From the NCBI GenBank assembly GCA_048270185.1, contig JBLWTJ010000001.1, positions 1,376,001 to 1,440,000 on the forward strand: 64,000 nucleotides of DNA. Reading direction: 5' to 3'. Numbering within the stretch: the first letter of the stretch is position 1; the number at the start of each line of letters is the position of its first letter. A model generated the notes under the pieces. The model did no database searches, was not told the origin of the DNA, and worked only from the letters and a program-made list of their open reading frames with translations. The translations under genes were made by a program, and so were the position numbers. Source of the DNA: Bacteriovoracaceae bacterium. Its GTDB lineage: Bacteria; Bdellovibrionota; Bacteriovoracia; Bacteriovoracales; Bacteriovoracaceae. Below are positions 3,449-52,761 of this stretch, piece after piece.

Positions 3449-4522
3449 TTACTGCTTAGAAAAATATTTTAACATATCTTTCTCGATTTCATCTAATGTC
3501 ATCGAATTTAGTGAATAAAGGCCTTCTTCATCACTTCTTAAGCCTTTTAACTTCTCTGTCGCAAGCTCTAATCCCTGATCAACGCAAATGCGATCACATG
3601 AAAGAGTCTTTAATTGCTCACCACCACCAAGAAGATCACTTCCTTCAATAGTGACAAATAAGCCTTTACGGTCGAGTAGTTTATCAACAGATGAAACGAT
3701 TGCACTATTATAAATCATAAGCCTTGTAACTGGTTGTGGAGGCTGAGGAGTCTTGGCTTTAATATGTGGCTCAAGAGCACGCCAATCTCTGATGGCCCCT
3801 TCAAATTGAGCGATCTCTGCTTCAAATTGCTTGCGGTCTTCGGCCAGAAGACTTTGAAAGTTGGCGACTTCCTCTTTTAAGTTTGAAATATCAATATTTG
3901 AAAATGGAATCTCTTCACTTGTCACAATTTGAATAGTCTTTCTCAAGTCACTGAGAAAGCTTTCTTTAACTTTACCAAGAAGTTTTAGATTCTCTTCTCC
4001 CGTCCCGACGAGACACAAATTACGAGTTTCTAAAATAGCATCAAGTTGTTGATCATGACCTTTGTGATAAGAAATACGATCATCACTTGCTAGTGCAAGT
4101 TCATTAAGAGCATAAACTCTTGCTGCACCCATAGGGGCCGGCTTTGTTAATTCTGTTGAATAGCAGACAAAATCGAAATCCTCAAAAGACTCAATTGAGT
4201 TCTTAAGTGAGTCCAAAACATCTTTACCAAGTTTTTCAAAGATTTCAGGGTTATCTAATTTCTGTCTTTCTATTTCCGAAGTTGCATTGACTTTATAGAC
4301 CACGCGAAAAGTGTCGGCCATGCGAGAGCGATTTTTAAGATCTATTTCCGGAGCGAGAAATCTCTTATGAACACGAACAACTTCAACGTCTTTGAAATTG
4401 ATTCCTTCAAGACTTGATTCTTGGTTCATTTGACCAATTAACTTAACGTGGACACCGAGATCTTCAAAATGACGATAAGCCGCAATTGCGGCTTCATCAC
4501 TACCTAAAATAGCTATTTTCAT
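3449..4522 (-). CDS. hypothetical protein with degenerate FAD/NAD(P)-binding oxidoreductase-like fold
   Basis: N-terminal MKIAILGSDEAAIAA and internal LCLVGTGE resemble eroded Rossmann glycine motifs. Confidence 0.55.
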   Translation of the reverse strand: MKIAILGSDEAAIAAYRHFEDLGVHVKLIGQMNQESSLEGINFKDVEVVRVHKRFLAPEIDLKNRSRMADTFRVVYKVNATSEIERQKLDNPEIFEKLGKDVLDSLKNSIESFEDFDFVCYSTELTKPAPMGAARVYALNELALASDDRISYHKGHDQQLDAILETRNLCLVGTGEENLKLLGKVKESFLSDLRKTIQIVTSEEIPFSNIDISNLKEEVANFQSLLAEDRKQFEAEIAQFEGAIRDWRALEPHIKAKTPQPPQPVTRLMIYNSAIVSSVDKLLDRKGLFVTIEGSDLLGGGEQLKTLSCDRICVDQGLELATEKLKGLRSDEEGLYSLNSMTLDEIEKDMLKYFSKQ

Positions 4523-47657: not shown

Positions 47658-49196
47658 TTATTGTGAAACAATATCTAAATTTCTCTTCTTCATTTTTTCA
47701 ATAAGTGTCGTACGGTTCATCTGTAGCAGCTTTGAAGCTTGGTTCTTATTTCCATTTGTCTTCGTTAGTGCTTGTTTAATTAGCGACTCTTCAACTTCAT
47801 TCATAAAATCTTTTAGATTAATACCATTATCTGGCAGACTAACTAAATCATCTGTATCAATAGTTGAACGATTTGTTAGAGCTAAAATCTTCGGCGGTAA
47901 ATCTTGCGGTCTGATCTTATTTCCACCTCTAAGAATAACTAGACGCTCGACCAGGTTCTCTAGTTCACGAACATTTCCTGGCCATTCATAAGACATAAGA
48001 ATTTCAAATGTCTCATCATCTAGCTCAATAGCATTTCTTCCATCAGCACTTACAAAGCGTGAAAGGAAGTATGAAATAAGAAGAGGAATATCTTCTCTTC
48101 TATCTTTAAGAGCTGGAATCTTTATAGGAATAACATTTAAACGGTAATATAAGTCTTCTCTAAAATTACCTTGCTGAACAGAGTCCTCAAGGTTTCTGTG
48201 AGTTGCTGTAATAATACGAACATCAACAGGAGTTGAAGTTGATGAACCAACTCTTTCTATTTCTCTTTGCTGTAGAACTCTTAGAAGTTTAACCTGCAAT
48301 AGAAGTGGCATATCACCAATTTCGTCCAGAAAGATCGTTCCACCATTAGCTACTTCAAAACGCCCAAGACGATTTGAAACAGCACCAGTAAAGGCGCCTT
48401 TCTCATGCCCAAAAAGCTCACTTTCTAAAAGCTCTCCAGGAATAGCACCACAGTTTACATTAACAATTTTATTTTCATTTCTTTGAGAACACTGGTGAAT
48501 GGCCTTGGCCACTAGTTCCTTCCCAGTTCCAGAAGGTCCACCGATTAAGACAGTCGAATTAGAAGCCGCAACTTTCTTAATACGATCGTAGATCTTTCTC
48601 ATTGGTTTCGAGCGGCCAATCATTCCACAAAACATATCGTCTTCAGTAGGCATCTCTAATTTATACTTAGTTCCAAATGACTTATTACTTGAAGAAGGCT
48701 TCATTTCAGAGTGAAACTCAAGGCTTTCACGATATTCAAGCTTATTGACAAGAGCACGAATCACAAGATCTTTCAGTGCATCGAGATCAAATGGTTTTGT
48801 TAGATAATGAAAAACACCTTTCTTTGTCGCTGCAATTGCCGTCTCAATCGAGGCAAAGCCTGTCATGACAATAGAAGCAAAGCTTAGGCCCTTCTCTTTA
48901 AGAAGGTCGATAAGGTAGAGCCCATCAGAAGAACTATCTTCAAAGCTAATATCAGTGATTAAGCAAAAACGATCCATCTCATTCTTTGTAATATGCTCAA
49001 TCGCCAAATTAGGAGAAGTGAAGCTTACAACTTCGAGATTGATCTTCTTTGAAAGGTATTTTGTGATCATCGCAGAAAGAGTTAAATCATCTTCTACGAC
49101 AATAATAACTGGTTTTGTTGTTTGATCGATTTTGACGTCGTTTGTTGACTCATCATTGGAAAATGCATCAGTCAAAAAGTTAAAATCATTCTTCAT
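47658..49196 (-). CDS. sigma54-dependent response regulator (REC-AAA+-HTH), likely flagellar regulator
   Basis: REC domain (EDD, TD, TG, KP), [31 protein letters not shown], Fis HTH. Confidence 0.93.
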
Positions 49197-49333
49197 GTGT
49201 TGTTGCCCCTCGCATGAGGTTTAAAATTGTCCCACTAAAATGGTATCGAATAAGTTGAGGACGTGTCAATTTTTTAACACCATGACAATTCTGCCTGAAG
49301 CCGCGTAAACACTGAATATTATAGAATTTCTTT

Positions 49334-49564
49334 CTAAAAGTTTCTTACAAGTTCTAAAACGAAGTGCACAATTTTATCTGGTCCACCGGCCCAAACCCAT
49401 AGTACGAGAAAGAAAGTTGAGAAGGCCGAACACACCCCAAAAAGCAAAGGCGGAAGAGTATAGCCACGCAGCCAGTAGTAATAGGCAAAGCGCGTTGCAA
49501 TAATGATGATCGGTATTGACCAGAATGGTGTGTACCTGAGGGTAAACATGAGAGTTTCGTTCAT
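49334..49564 (-). CDS. small membrane protein
   Basis: 76 aa with two hydrophobic helices, fills an intergenic gap. Confidence 0.6.
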   Translation of the reverse strand: MNETLMFTLRYTPFWSIPIIIIATRFAYYYWLRGYTLPPLLFGVCSAFSTFFLVLWVWAGGPDKIVHFVLELVRNF

Positions 49565-49588
49565 AGGATAAGTATAATCGGATTTAGG

Positions 49589-49618
49589 AAAAAAGAAAGG
49601 CTCCTTTCGGAGCCTTTT
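49589..49618 (-). terminator. rho-independent terminator downstream of metK and its duplicated 3' end
   Basis: minus strand AAAGGCTCC-GAAA-GGAGCCTTT followed by a T-tract. Confidence 0.88.
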
Positions 49619-49621
49619 ATT

Positions 49622-49823
49622 CTATAAGCAAAGAGCTTTAAGTTTCTCAACATAAGAAAGCTCTTCCCAAGGGACATCGTGTGGCAAAAGTGTCCCCAAG
49701 GACAGTTTTGACTCTCAGATGCATGTGACCCAAGGAAGCTAGCCTAGCGGAGCGACGGCACGGCTTTCGGTTAAAGACACAGGGCCTTTAACTTCTCAAC
49801 GTAGCTTAGCTCTTCCCAAGGGA
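49622..49823 (-). repeat. synonymously diverged direct repeat of the last 17 metK codons flanking a 96-bp GC-rich spacer
   Basis: 49622-49672 and 49771-49821 both encode [16 protein letters not shown]; 16-bp identical core AGCTCTTCCCAAGGGA at 49659-49674 and 49808-49823. Confidence 0.92.
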
Positions 49824-50943
49824 ATAAACCTTCTTTCGTTCTACCAAAGTGACCATAAGCTGCAGTCTCTTTGTAGATTGGTCTCATAAGATCTAGTCTT
49901 TCGATGATTGAAGCAGGCTTCATATCAAAGATTTGGTTAACAGCATTGTTGATCTTAGCAACATCAACTTTCTCTGTACCAAAAGTATCAACAAGAAGAG
50001 ACATTGGCTCAGCGACACCAATTGCATAAGCAACTTGTACTAGAGCTTTATCAGCAAGACCTGCAGCAACGATGTGCTTAGCAATTTGTCTTGTAGCATA
50101 AGCAGCTGAACGATCTACTTTTGTTGGATCCTTACCAGAGAATGCTCCACCACCGTGTGCTCCGTGTCCACCGTAAGTATCAACGATAATCTTACGACCA
50201 GTTAGACCACAGTCACCCATTGGACCACCGATAACGAATTTACCAGTTGGGTTGATGAAGATTTTAGTATTATTATCAACAAGTGATGCTGGAACAACTT
50301 TATTAATAACTTCTTCTCTTACACCTTCTTGAACTTGAGCAAGAGTCATATTATCTGAGTGTTGAGTTGAAACAACGATTGCATCAATACGAGATAGTTT
50401 ACCATCAACGTACTGTGCAGAAACTTGTGTCTTACCATCAGCTCTTAGTTCACCAAGTGTTCCATTCTTTCTTACTTCAGAAAGTCTTTGAGCAAGCTTG
50501 TGTGAAAGATCAATTGTCATTGGCATGAAGTTTTCACTTTCGTTATTTGCGTAACCGAACATAAGTCCTTGGTCACCTGCACCTAATTCAGTGTATGTAC
50601 CTTCACCAACGTTTACACCTTGAGCGATATCTGGTGATTGCTTATCAAGAGCAACCATAACGCTACAAGTGTTACAATCAAAACCTTTGTCTGAGTGATC
50701 GTAACCGATTTCTCTGATTTTATTTCTTACTACTTCTTGAAAATCAATATTTGCTTTTGAAGTAATCTCACCAGCTAGAACGACTAGTCCAGTTGTGATC
50801 ATTGTTTCACAAGCAACGCGTGACTTAGGGTCTTGCTCTAGCATTGCATCTAGAACTGCGTCACTGATTTGATCGGCCATTTTATCTGGGTGCCCTTCTG
50901 TAACTGATTCAGAAGTAAATACATAATCTTTTAGCACTGCCAC
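49771..50943 (-). CDS. metK: S-adenosylmethionine synthetase
   Basis: [35 protein letters not shown]. Confidence 0.98.
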
Positions 50944-51057
50944 ATCTCCTGTCTATAAATAATTAATACACTAATAATCTGTAGACTATACTGCTCTCGA
51001 CGCGTTTTAACAACTAGTTTAGAGCACTATTTTCAACTATTTAGACTCAATAAAAAA

Positions 51058-52761
51058 CTAGTAATCGCCCTTTATAACGAAGTATTTGAAGAAGTGTGGA
51101 TTGCGATATTGATAGAACTTTCCATCACGCGTCGCATGTACATAGACTTTATTTTTATAACGATAAACATCAAAGGCCTCACCCTGAGAGCTCTTAAATG
51201 AATAGAGAAAGTTTAAATTTTTTCTCTTTAATAAAGTCTTTAATTTTGAAGAGTTATGTATAAGAGGACCTGGCCTTTCAGGTATACTCTCATATTCATC
51301 CCAAAGACTCGACATATCCATACGTCCAAGCATTGATGCACGCGAGAAGTAACGAGTCGCTTTAAAGTCCTTATCAGGCTCACTAAGTTCTTCAAGAATC
51401 ATTTTTAAGTTCTTGGCCCTTAACTTCCTTGCCGAACGAGATTGATCAGGACAAAAGATCCCTTTTGAAGCCGGAATAAAGAAATATGTAAAAGAGAATT
51501 GTCCTCGTTTAAAAAGAACATTTAGCCATGGATACTGCTTTGTCTCTTTAATACCATTCTCCACTAATGATTTGTAGAATGGTTCATCCTCTTCAATCGT
51601 ATTATAGCTTGGATTGTCCACGCGATTAATTACAACTTTTGCAACGTCTCGTCTTTCGCTTCCGTAGCTATCATCAAGGCGTCCAACTTCATGAATGAGA
51701 ATTGTTTCAAGAGCGAAGAGCTTTCGGTAAATTTCTTTTTGTTTTTTCCAAAACTTATAGACGAGAGCTTCCTTATCATACACATAGTGACTTAGAGCAT
51801 AGCGGGCCTGATTCTTATCTTGGAAGATTTTCTTTAAAATCTCATTCTTAGATTCACTCTTTTTTAGTAGGTCGACATAGTAATCTTCACGCTCAATAAT
51901 CTTCTTTTCCCAATATTTTACACGATTAAGCATCTTCTTATGTCCAGTACGAAGAGTGCTATCAAGTCTCGATATGAGATCAGAAATATCATAGCGTAGA
52001 TCATCAGTTAGAAAAGCTTCATCAAAGCCAATAATTCGCAGATAGACTGAGTCGATAAGAGATCGAAGACTTAAGTCAGAGCGCCCCCTCTTTGCATCAA
52101 CACTACCATCTTCAATTATCTTTCTTAATAGATATGCTGAATTCGACTTTTGCTTCCCCTCTTTTGTCTCAAGGTCTTTATACTTGTCATACTCACTTCT
52201 TAAATGAAGATGATCTACTGGAAACTTAAACGAATGGAAGAAGTAAAGACTTCCAAGATATGCTTCAAAGTCTTTAAGAAACTTCTTAATTTCAACTTTG
52301 GAAGCTCGAGACATTCTAGACTTCTCATCGAGATCTTTAGCATAACGATATTTATAATTATGGCGCATGGCCTTTTCAAATTGAGTTTGAATTTCTCTAT
52401 TTCTTGATAAGACGTTACGAAAAGATCGCATTTTAAGAAGACGCTTTTTAACATCGGCAATCCACTCTCTCTTTTTCTTCATCAGAGGAAGGTATTCCTT
52501 AATTGTCCCTTCATCTAATTCACCATCAAGAGTAAAAGGAATAAAAATACCGTTACCAAGAAAACTCTTATAGAGCTTTTCCGTTTCTTTATATACCTTC
52601 ATCGAACAAGTAGCCTTGTACTGCTTGCGATGAAGATCTAAGTAACCTTTTATTAATTCATCATTACTTAAGGCTTGAACCTTGGATGCTGAAATTAAAA
52701 CAGTTAGGAGTAAAGTGAGGCGTTTAAAGCTTCTTAACAAATTCACTACTCCACAGTCCAA
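51058..52761 (-). CDS. secreted protein with C-terminal SleB/CwlJ (Hydrolase_2)-like cell-wall hydrolase domain
   Basis: signal peptide; LETILIHEVG...VAKVVINRV...VLFKRGQFS...ATRYF pattern; real start may be TTG 52740. Confidence 0.65.
   Translation of the reverse strand: MDCGVVNLLRSFKRLTLLLTVLISASKVQALSNDELIKGYLDLHRKQYKATCSMKVYKETEKLYKSFLGNGIFIPFTLDGELDEGTIKEYLPLMKKKREWIADVKKRLLKMRSFRNVLSRNREIQTQFEKAMRHNYKYRYAKDLDEKSRMSRASKVEIKKFLKDFEAYLGSLYFFHSFKFPVDHLHLRSEYDKYKDLETKEGKQKSNSAYLLRKIIEDGSVDAKRGRSDLSLRSLIDSVYLRIIGFDEAFLTDDLRYDISDLISRLDSTLRTGHKKMLNRVKYWEKKIIEREDYYVDLLKKSESKNEILKKIFQDKNQARYALSHYVYDKEALVYKFWKKQKEIYRKLFALETILIHEVGRLDDSYGSERRDVAKVVINRVDNPSYNTIEEDEPFYKSLVENGIKETKQYPWLNVLFKRGQFSFTYFFIPASKGIFCPDQSRSARKLRAKNLKMILEELSEPDKDFKATRYFSRASMLGRMDMSSLWDEYESIPERPGPLIHNSSKLKTLLKRKNLNFLYSFKSSQGEAFDVYRYKNKVYVHATRDGKFYQYRNPHFFKYFVIKGDY

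What the first reader, a model, noticed from the sequence alone, without database searches (positions are those of the whole stretch)
49622..49823. metK 3' end present twice, synonymously recoded, around a GC-rich mini-element
Seen in sequence: the in-gene copy (cct tgg gaa gag cta agc tac gtt gag aag tta aag gcc ctg tgt ctt taa) and a copy 149 bp downstream (cct tgg gaa gag ctt tct tat gtt gag aaa ctt aaa gct ctt tgc tta tag) encode the same [16 protein letters not shown]. They differ at 15 of 51 nt in 11 codons, all silent, including Ser AGC versus TCT and a different stop. A 16-bp identical core sits at the start of both. The downstream copy abuts the terminator and uses the CTT/TCT/GCT codons typical of metK, so it looks like the displaced original end. 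The offset is not a multiple of 3, so in-frame readthrough is excluded. Established: integrative elements that target coding 3' ends carry a replacement end. Inference: a tiny non-autonomous element, or the scar of a larger one, that inserts into an essential gene and repairs it with a recoded tail. No recombinase is encoded nearby.
Basis: partly seen in the sequence, partly recalled or inferred. Interest (0 to 1): 0.82.

Follow-up and report, generated by a model that had tools for sequence, protein, structure and literature searches.

The report
Small repeat element between duplicated metK tails
A 96-base structured repeat element sits just after the stop codon of the essential gene metK, between two differently spelled copies of the gene's last 16 codons; the extra piece is missing exactly in some natural relatives and has passed between species.

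Summary
metK (minus strand, 49771-50943) ends in 17 codons (49771-49821) that recur 149 nt downstream (49622-49672). The two copies differ at 15 of 51 nt, all silent, after a 16-nt identical core.

The spacer is not an orphan. It is one copy of a two-hairpin repeat family with 4-15 copies per genome in six congeners. About half of the 32 copies examined lie between direct repeats of 13-85 nt of local sequence, and relatives without the element hold one copy.

The metK arrangement occurs in 4 of 237 family genomes. Two close relatives have a single tail. One metagenome holds both the occupied form and a form lacking exactly 149 nt, in which the downstream copy ends the gene.

In-gene tail plus element is identical (0 of 160 nt) in two species whose flanks differ by 10%. 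The downstream copies change almost only at silent sites.

My reading: the family duplicates its target on insertion, and at metK this has matured into a 149-nt cassette bounded by the core, lost precisely and exchanged between species. No recombinase lies nearby and the enzyme is unknown. RAYT genes are the only candidate found. This is a new variant of a known kind.

The parts
49771..50943 (-). metK (S-adenosylmethionine synthetase) coding sequence, intact, 390 aa
   Evidence: ORF list; Pfam PF00438, PF02772 and PF02773
49771..49821 (-). In-gene tail copy (I): last 16 codons and TAA. Uses rare codons (AGC, CTG, GCC). Moves as one block with the element.
49808..49823 (-). Upstream copy of the 16-nt identical core
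   Evidence: the block shared by G002 and G004 starts here
49675..49770 (-). Family-A repeat element, 96 nt (97 if the T at 49674, shared with the core, is counted), 55.7% G+C. Starts directly after the metK stop codon.
   Evidence: family found; alignment A1; composition
49734..49768 (-). Hairpin P1 of the element
   Evidence: consensus fold with compensatory changes, (columns 3-38)
49675..49721 (-). Hairpin P2 of the element (long imperfect hairpin). Its end is the element's fixed 3' boundary.
   Evidence: columns 51-98; conserved 3' module
49659..49674 (-). Downstream copy of the 16-nt core. It is the junction of the 149-nt-less form.
   Evidence: joint 49661->49811, 13 letters fit both sides
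49622..49672 (-). Downstream tail copy (D): the same peptide and TAG, out of frame with metK. It is the working end in the allele without the cassette.
49596..49617 (-). Intrinsic-terminator-like hairpin with T run, shared by the occupied and empty forms
   Evidence: conserved in relatives

Best explanation
The spacer is one copy of a small structured repeat family (about 87-98 nt). It has hairpins P1 and P2, a fixed 3' end and a looser 5' end. Insertion of this family goes together with duplication of 13-85 nt of the target.

At metK the duplicated stretch is the last 16 codons and the stop. The element lies directly after the first stop codon, so the gene was never interrupted and needed no repair.

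With time the two copies diverged until only a 16-nt core stayed identical. From then on, the in-gene tail and the element form one 149-nt cassette that behaves like a tiny integrated element. It can be lost exactly, by recombination or replication slippage between the two cores that flank the hairpins, and the downstream copy then becomes the gene's end. The cassette has also been passed between species.

The downstream copy keeps a coding-like pattern because it is the working tail in alleles without the cassette, and it recombines with them.

Shown: family membership, the architecture, empty sites, the exact 149-nt-less allele, the core-to-core identity block, and the silent-site pattern.

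Inferred: that the metK duplication arose as a target duplication, the route of loss, the route of transfer (homologous recombination after DNA uptake, or re-integration at the core), and the enzyme. The enzyme is unknown; a REP-associated tyrosine transposase acting in trans is the only candidate seen.
For: 1. Family. Three clear copies and one weak copy in the window's genome. The covariance model finds it in 10 of 13 genus genomes at E<=0.001. Hits below 1e-13 occur only in G000, G002, G004, G008, G009 and G011. Of 22 predicted pairs, 9 show compensatory changes.

2. Architecture. Of 32 distinct copies, 15 have an upstream/downstream repeat scoring above every shuffle (maximum 12.5), and the downstream repeat starts 0-3 nt after the element's 3' end. 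Repeat lengths are 13-85 nt. Some are exact or nearly so: 59 of 59, 56 of 57, 60 of 61.

3. One copy in relatives without the element. This holds at the terminator locus (G008, G004, G000), the REP locus (G004, G002), queC (5 of 5 relatives) and metK (G009, G011).

4. Run X2. A contig of the occupied form (depth 19.8) coexists with a 107-nt contig (57+50 letters, depth 7.14) that joins 49661 to 49811 and skips 149 nt.

5. G002 versus G004. There are 30 differences in the 300 nt upstream, the last at -1. There are none in the next 160 nt, then 7 in the next 37 nt.

6. The four downstream copies need at least 13 changes: 3, 0 and 10 at codon positions 1, 2 and 3, with only 2 changing the residue. 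Random changes would be silent 18-28% of the time. P(<=2 of 13) = 3.6e-5.

7. In X2 the occupied allele carries a Leu-to-Val change in the downstream copy that the empty allele lacks, and a silent change in the in-gene copy (table 3).

8. Second case. The queC tail (7 codons, 2 stops, terminator) is duplicated around a family copy in G002. Its 3 coding differences are all silent, and one terminator stem pair is changed on both sides.
Against: 1. If the two tails were identical at insertion, the Ser AGC/TCT switch (3 nt) and the run of five consecutive recoded codons next to the core in the G002/G004/G008 type are hard to reach by point mutation. They fit a foreign tail better.

2. Neither tail resembles the single tail of the closest empty-site species. 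G011 differs from the G004 and G008 downstream copies at 10-12 of 51 nt, although metK differs by only 2-3%.

3. No known enzyme makes target duplications of 13-85 nt. The candidate searches gave: reverse transcriptase in 5 of 13 genomes and lacking in three element-rich ones; TnpB in 0 of 13; Y2 transposase in 2 of 13. RAYT genes are flanked by a different 16-nt repeat, and only one element copy lies near one.

4. Several of the direct repeats are themselves repeat modules or array units, so not every one is a fresh target duplication.

5. The empty allele in X2 rests on one short contig from one study. It differs from the co-occurring occupied allele by a SNP, so it shows polymorphism, not ongoing excision.

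6. The window's copy folds no better than shuffles (z = +0.38). The structure rests on covariation alone.
Confidence: 0.55

Rival explanations
1. A 149-nt non-autonomous integrative cassette (core, foreign synonymous tail, element) enters metK by Campbell-type recombination at the 16-nt core. It arrives already carrying a tail that evolved as a working metK end in another lineage. The downstream copy is the recipient's own displaced end.
For: - The identity block between G002 and G004 runs from core to core.
- The in-gene tail uses rare codons and Ser AGC, while every downstream copy and every single-tail relative has TCN.
- Both tails evolve like coding DNA.
- The 149-nt-less allele ends in the downstream copy.
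- At the terminator locus in G011, the upstream copy and its neighbouring hairpin look like G000's version, while the downstream copy carries the terminator stem of its close relative G004 and continues into the native flank.
Against: - Copies of the same family at unrelated targets have exact duplications (59 of 59, 56 of 57). An incoming element could not carry these.
- No AGC-type native tail was found in 237 family genomes.
- No recombinase lies nearby.
- The downstream copies cluster with each other (4-8 differences) rather than with the tails of their closest empty-site relatives (10-12 differences).
- A 149-bp double-stranded circle is strained. This last point rests on general knowledge and was not tested.
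Confidence: 0.28
2. A static, ancient duplication. The element and second tail were fixed once in an ancestor and are kept because the element is a useful 3'-UTR RNA structure (stabiliser or terminator). There is no mobility today, and the empty sites are old losses.
For: - The hairpins covary.
- The apical part of P2 followed by a T run serves as the repeat unit's end in arrays and sits right after a stop codon in G008 and G009.
- All copies seen lie downstream of a gene on the same strand.
- G000's cassette differs from the others about as much as its metK does (22 of 148 against 12-14%).
Against: - Zero differences in 160 nt between G002 and G004 against 10% in the flanks.
- Occupied and empty alleles coexist in one metagenome.
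- The empty-site species G009 and G011 sit inside the clade of occupied species, and their tails are not the product expected from recombination between the two copies.
- The silent-only pattern of a supposedly dead downstream copy.
Confidence: 0.12
3. Assembly chimera of two strains' metK ends, or chance resemblance.
For: None found. The two tails do differ at many silent sites, as two strains' alleles would.
Against: - The same order (tail, element, tail, terminator) occurs in four separately assembled species genomes and in single contigs of runs X1 and X2.
- A 17-codon identical peptide 149 nt apart is far beyond chance.
Confidence: 0.01

Closest known systems
REP / REPIN / BIME repeats with REP-associated tyrosine transposases (RAYTs). 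Bertels & Rainey 2011, PMC3116915: passages read. Other papers were seen only in the search listing.
   Same: Short, G+C-rich, hairpin-forming extragenic repeats just downstream of genes. They are mixed with other repeat modules in mosaics and tandem clusters, are non-autonomous, and can be lost from a share of molecules. RAYT genes are present in 12 of 13 genus genomes. One is a curated-threshold match to NF047646.
   Different: Copy number is low (4-15 per genome, not hundreds). The unit is asymmetric, with two different hairpins rather than two inverted REPs. The RAYT gene examined is flanked by a different 16-nt repeat. Long direct duplications of the target flank the element. In the passages I read, no target duplication is described for REPINs.
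Integrative elements at the 3' end of tRNA, tmRNA or protein genes that carry a replacement end, and their integrase-less derivatives (cis-mobilizable elements, CIMEs). This comparison is recalled from general knowledge; no paper was read here.
   Same: Direct repeats at both ends with an identical core. The gene stays intact because a second copy of its end precedes the insert. The displaced original end lies downstream. Exact loss restores the original gene.
   Different: About 150 nt instead of kilobases. No integrase in or near it. Members of the same family sit at many unrelated targets. Young copies have exact duplications of the local target, so the repeat is made at the site, not brought in.
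MITEs derived from DDE transposons, and IS200/IS605-derived palindrome-associated elements (recalled)
   Same: Small, non-coding, structured, multi-copy, and dependent on a function in trans.
   Different: No terminal inverted repeats. The duplication is long and variable rather than short and fixed. IS200/IS605 elements make no duplication at all. TnpB was found in 0 of 13 genomes.

Membership tests
REP/REPIN-RAYT system | Short extragenic repeat that forms a conserved hairpin | tested here: met
   22 predicted pairs, 9 with changes on both sides, in 17 copies. The single window copy is not more stable than shuffles.
REP/REPIN-RAYT system | Unit made of two inverted copies of the same REP (a REPIN) | tested here: not met
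   P1 and P2 are different hairpins joined by a conserved linker.
REP/REPIN-RAYT system | A cognate RAYT gene flanked by the same repeat | tested here: not met
   The RAYT gene in G011 (NF047646, 81.6 bits, cut-off 80) is flanked by a different 16-nt repeat. One family copy lies about 300 nt away, between two copies of that repeat. Only this one RAYT gene's flanks were read; by coordinates, none of the others listed lies beside a family copy listed.
REP/REPIN-RAYT system | Tens to hundreds of copies per genome | tested here: not met
   4-15 matches per genome in the six genomes that have it.
Integrative element with a replacement gene end (integrase type, or CIME) | Direct repeats with an identical core at both ends; the gene is kept intact by a second copy of its end | tested here: met
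   16-nt core and two tails encoding the same peptide.
Integrative element with a replacement gene end (integrase type, or CIME) | Exact loss restores a single functional end | tested here: met
   One contig in run X2 joins 49661 to 49811, skipping 149 nt. This shows that such an allele exists, not that excision is ongoing.
Integrative element with a replacement gene end (integrase type, or CIME) | A site-specific recombinase, in the element or known to act on it | tested here: not met
   None among the six ORFs from 44.7 to 54.1 kb. No cognate enzyme was identified elsewhere.
Integrative element with a replacement gene end (integrase type, or CIME) | One specific target site for the family | tested here: not met
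   Targets include the metK tail, the queC tail with its terminator, a terminator module, a REP, and other repeat modules.
MITE of a DDE transposon | Terminal inverted repeats and a short target duplication of fixed length | tested here: not met
   The 5' and 3' ends are not inverted copies of each other. Duplications are 13-85 nt.
IS200/IS605-derived element or TnpB guide RNA | No target duplication; TnpA or TnpB present | tested here: not met
   Long duplications. PF07282 in 0 of 13 genomes. Y1 transposase-like genes are present.
Diversity-generating retroelement (template and variable repeat) | Differences that change residues at template adenines; a reverse transcriptase nearby | tested here: not met
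   All 15 differences are silent. No reverse transcriptase near metK, and one in only 5 of 13 genomes.
Any Rfam family | Match at the gathering score | tested here: not met
   In 49000-51500 only four sub-threshold matches, none over the element. The best, Histone3 (25.5 bits against 34), lies on the terminator hairpin.

The most novel reading that the evidence does not exclude
In this clade several families of small G+C-rich elements insert with target duplications of 13-85 nt by a mechanism not yet described. At essential genes (metK, queC) such a duplication has evolved into a recombinase-less mini-cassette of about 150 nt. It consists of a short identical core that serves as its own attachment site, a synonymously respelled 'rescue' copy of the gene's tail, and the element. 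The cassette leaves exactly, re-enters at the core, and crosses species boundaries. That would make it a natural counterpart of a recoded-rescue insertion.
Probability: 0.3. Interest if true: 0.85.

Novelty: new variant of a known kind. Interest (0 to 1): 0.66.

Why it matters
It shows how a small repeat element can live at the coding end of an essential gene without harm. It also shows how a plain target duplication may turn into an attachment-site-like core with a replacement gene end, the layout otherwise known only from integrase-borne islands.

The function-preserving differences between the two copies recur at three places: silent changes at metK and queC, and compensatory changes in terminator stems. 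They give a handle on how often such elements are gained and lost in nature.

Long, variable target duplications point to an insertion route not covered by the known bacterial transposition mechanisms.

For annotation, gene-end fragments just downstream of intact genes in these genomes are part of this architecture. They are neither pseudogenes nor assembly errors.

Tried and rejected
- Related loci: the search for related loci with MetK in genome contigs gave only distant relatives (51-69% identity) and was of no use.
- Metagenome scans: 0 matches for the element/downstream-tail junction. There was 1 match for the 3' module (L122). Read, it shows the same layout as the G002 copy L136, with a 13-nt flank repeat.
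- Viral contigs: 0 matches.
- Rfam: nothing over the element.
- Folding energy of the window's copy: z = +0.38, no support.
- A reverse-transcription (SINE-like) origin of the variable duplications: reverse transcriptase in only 5 of 13 genomes and lacking in G011, G002 and G004.
- RNA-guided nuclease with the flank as guide, which would explain respelling next to the core: TnpB in 0 of 13 genomes. IscB and Cas9 were not searched.
- IS91-type rolling circle: Y2 transposase only in G003 and G007, which lack strong family copies.
- Diversity-generating retroelement, ribozyme and intron readings: no support.
- Empty-site tails as the product of recombination between the two copies: rejected. They are downstream-like in codons 4-6 and in-gene-like in codons 9-15, the reverse of what such a deletion leaves.
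- Earlier notes of this scan: nothing.
- A literature search under a guessed genus name gave nothing usable (listing only). One search call failed on a term that was too long and was not repeated.
- I have not searched the literature specifically for long target duplications of bacterial repeat elements, so I do not claim that none is in print.
- Runs X4 and X6 have no contigs over 49485-49754. This proves nothing.

Full report
THE OBSERVATION

metK lies on the minus strand at 49771..50943 and carries all three S-adenosylmethionine synthetase domains. Read on the minus strand, the last 16 codons and TAA (49771-49821) are followed directly by a 96-nt stretch, then by a second copy of the same 16 codons and TAG (49622-49672), and then by a terminator-like hairpin at 49596-49617.

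The two copies start with an identical 16-nt core and differ at 15 of 51 nt in 11 codons, all silent. The offset is 149 nt.

The spacer has 55.7% G+C in a genome of 36.6%. The downstream copy uses the codons usual in the rest of metK. The in-gene copy uses AGC, CTG and GCC, which occur 1, 0 and 1 times elsewhere in the gene.

THE SPACER BELONGS TO A REPEAT FAMILY

A sensitive search of the window's own genome found related copies at C1:853516 and C2:347745, and a weak one at C1:1710539. All lie downstream of a gene on the same strand.

In relatives of the same genus the element is multi-copy. An alignment of 17 copies gives a consensus of two hairpins, P1 and P2, joined by a conserved linker. 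Of 22 predicted pairs, 9 keep pairing through changes on both sides.

The window's copy alone folds no better than shuffled sequence (z = +0.38), so the structure rests on covariation only.

A covariance model finds the family in 10 of 13 genus genomes at E<=0.001. Matches below 1e-13 occur only in six of them: G000, G002, G004, G008, G009 and G011, with 4-15 matches each. Several form tandem arrays.

In a DNA search of 237 genomes of the taxonomic family, the element appears in those six genomes only. Rfam has nothing over it. Public metagenome contigs gave one further copy and viral contigs none.

THE FAMILY'S HALLMARK IS A DUPLICATED FLANK

I collected 32 distinct copies with their flanks. 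In 15 of them, the 110 nt upstream and downstream share a local alignment that scores above every one of 640 shuffles (maximum 12.5), and the downstream repeat starts 0-3 nt after the element's 3' end. Repeat lengths are 13-85 nt.

These 15 come from about eight different loci. Four are the metK orthologues and three are array members. Some repeats are exact or nearly so: 59 of 59 in G002, 56 of 57 in G000, and 60 of 61 in a divergent member in G001.

Where a relative lacks the element, it has one copy of the repeated stretch:
- the terminator locus in G008, G004 and G000;
- a locus where the duplicated 21-22 nt is a REP next to a RAYT gene, with G004 and G002 empty;
- queC, with 5 of 5 relatives empty.

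So the element's arrival goes together with a duplication of the local sequence. The other 17 copies show no such repeat, and some repeats are themselves modules of the local repeat mosaic, so the rule is frequent but not universal.

THE metK LOCUS IN RELATIVES

Six genus genomes share the tail [16 protein letters not shown]. G000, G002, G004 and G008 have the full arrangement. These are the only four among the 237 family genomes.

G009 has a single tail followed by a terminator. G011 has a single tail followed by a different small repeat element.

By metK (1086 nt) and by the small gene downstream (231 nt), the species group as follows: G004, G008 and G011 are 2-7% apart, G009 comes next, and G002 and G000 are the most distant. 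The two single-tail species therefore sit inside the group of occupied ones.

All in-gene copies have Ser AGC. All downstream copies and both single tails have TCT or TCG.

THREE RESULTS BEAR ON WHAT THE ARRANGEMENT IS

1. The in-gene tail and the element form one block with its own history. G002 and G004 differ at 30 of the 300 nt upstream of the tail, the last difference 1 nt before it. They differ at none of the next 160 nt (tail, element, and the first 12 nt of the downstream copy), and then at 7 of the next 37 nt. G008 differs from them at 2 positions in the block. G000's block differs at 8 of 51 and about 14 of 97 positions.

2. The downstream copies evolve like coding DNA. The four need at least 13 changes, 10 at third and none at second codon positions, and only 2 alter the residue (Val to Phe in G008, Leu to Phe in G002). 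Random changes would be silent 18-28% of the time. The probability of 2 or fewer replacements in 13 is 3.6e-5.

3. An allele without the block exists in nature. In run X2, a plastic-associated metagenome stored as contigs, a 256-nt contig of depth 19.8 carries the occupied form. A 107-nt contig of depth 7.14 (57+50 letters, so nothing lies between) joins 49661 to 49811. It skips exactly 149 nt, and 13 letters fit either side. In that allele metK ends in the downstream copy.

The occupied contig in X2 carries a change that turns codon 11 of the downstream copy from Leu to Val, which the empty allele lacks. It also carries a silent change in the in-gene copy (table 3; codon positions are my calculation).

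This is one short contig from one study, and the SNP shows it is a separate allele rather than a fresh excision product. Run X1 has one 12,672-nt contig over the whole stretch, but it may be the source sample.

A SECOND AND A THIRD CASE

In G002 the last 7 codons of a 231-aa ORF that I take to be queC (named by eye from its sequence, not checked against a family library), with its two stop codons and its terminator, are repeated behind a family copy. The 3 differences in the coding part are all silent, and one stem pair of the terminator is changed on both sides.

At the terminator locus in G011, the two copies differ by compensatory changes in two hairpins. The upstream copy and its neighbouring hairpin resemble G000's version. 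The downstream copy has the terminator stem of the close relative G004 and runs on into the native flank.

Function-preserving differences between the two copies are therefore a recurrent feature, not a peculiarity of metK.

HOW IT MOST LIKELY WORKS

I favour a two-stage reading (confidence 0.55).

Stage one is the family's usual insertion with duplication of the target. At metK the duplicated stretch runs from the core to the stop codon, and the element lies right behind the first stop. The gene was never broken and needed no repair.

Stage two follows once the copies have diverged, so that exchange between them is confined to the remaining 16-nt core. The in-gene tail is then linked to the element, and the rest of the downstream copy to the chromosome. 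The 149-nt block now behaves like a minute integrated cassette.

Loss between the cores is known for short direct repeats that flank hairpins (general knowledge, not tested here). It restores a gene that ends in the downstream copy. Occupied and empty alleles coexist and recombine, which keeps the downstream copy under selection. The block can pass to another species.

The insertion step, the route of loss and the route of transfer are all inferred. The enzyme is unknown.

RAYT-type Y1 transposase genes occur in 12 of 13 genus genomes, 2-5 in the element-bearing genomes and 0-2 in the others. One reaches the curated threshold of NF047646. But it is flanked by a different 16-nt repeat, and only one family copy lies near one. 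Reverse transcriptase (5 of 13), TnpB (0 of 13) and Y2 transposase (2 of 13) do not fit.

- The AGC/TCT switch and five consecutive respelled codons next to the core are hard to reach by point mutation.
- The in-gene tail uses rare codons.
- The identity block ends at the cores.

Against that model:
- Exact duplications at unrelated targets cannot be carried in.
- No native AGC-type tail was found.
- The downstream copies resemble one another (4-8 differences) more than they resemble the tail of their nearest empty-site relative (10-12 differences).

The last point is explained by neither model. Seventeen codons give little resolution. A static ancient duplication (0.12) is contradicted by the identity block and by the coexisting alleles. 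An assembly artefact is excluded.

COMPARISON AND NOVELTY

The element works like a REP/REPIN/BIME-type repeat in where it sits and how it clusters. The metK arrangement works like the attL/attR layout of an island that replaces a gene's 3' end. It is a member of neither family by their defining features (see the membership table).

I rate it a new variant of a known kind. The new features are the long, variable target duplications, their function-preserving divergence, and a cassette of about 150 nt that is exchanged between species without any recombinase of its own.

Noticed in passing
L015 (G011 metK locus); L007 about 4180-4260; L008 about 4215-4260: A second small repeat family has a hairpin with a conserved AACAAGCC...GGCTTTGTTG stem. 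In G011 it follows the metK stop codon in place of the element studied here. In G000 it precedes two family-A copies.
   Followed up: partly
L031, L039, L041, L125 (G011, G004, G009): A 21-nt motif (GTCTCAGGAGCAATGGGAAAG and variants) recurs right after the 3' end of family-A copies and of the second family. Short hairpin modules follow it. Together they form tandem units of 110-247 nt, a mosaic like the BIMEs of enterobacteria.
   Followed up: partly
L191 (G008:C2) about 1600-1864; L187 (G009:C34): In G009 a family-A copy abuts the 3' end of tRNA-Arg(TCG) on the other strand. In G008 an exact 21-nt copy of that tRNA end and about 187 nt of another G+C-rich element lie between them. This is a second element type with a long target duplication.
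   Followed up: partly
L148 about 1670-1930 (G011:C2); L163, L165: Arrays of a hairpin repeat of about 50 nt (CCCGCGTAGGCGCAGCCGATCGCGG type) lie downstream of the terminator locus in G011, G008 and G004.
   Followed up: no
L170 1453-2079 (G011:C1) and orthologues in G004:C9 and G002:C1: A 208-aa REP-associated tyrosine transposase gene. In G011, where I read the flanks, a 16-nt repeat (AAAGTATCGACGTACC) stands before its start and right after its stop codon. The same repeat also occurs near the orthologous genes in G004 and G002.
   Followed up: partly
window 49334-49564 (minus strand): A 76-aa predicted membrane protein with no Pfam match follows metK. A similar small ORF follows metK in many of the family genomes compared.
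   Followed up: no
L007 about 4060-4110 (G000:C1:853560) against L034 and L035: The G000 copy behind the nqrF-like gene has a 50-nt insert inside the element. The insert is the reverse complement of a sequence that lies downstream of the element in G008 and G011. The rearrangement is unexplained.
   Followed up: no
window 49594-49639: The best Rfam match in the region, the histone 3' UTR stem-loop (25.5 bits, cut-off 34), is a chance hit on the metK terminator hairpin.
   Followed up: yes
window 49399-49838, run X1: A 736-nt contig joins 49399 to 49838 with 290 other letters in between. It is probably another organism's arrangement of this neighbourhood.
   Followed up: no
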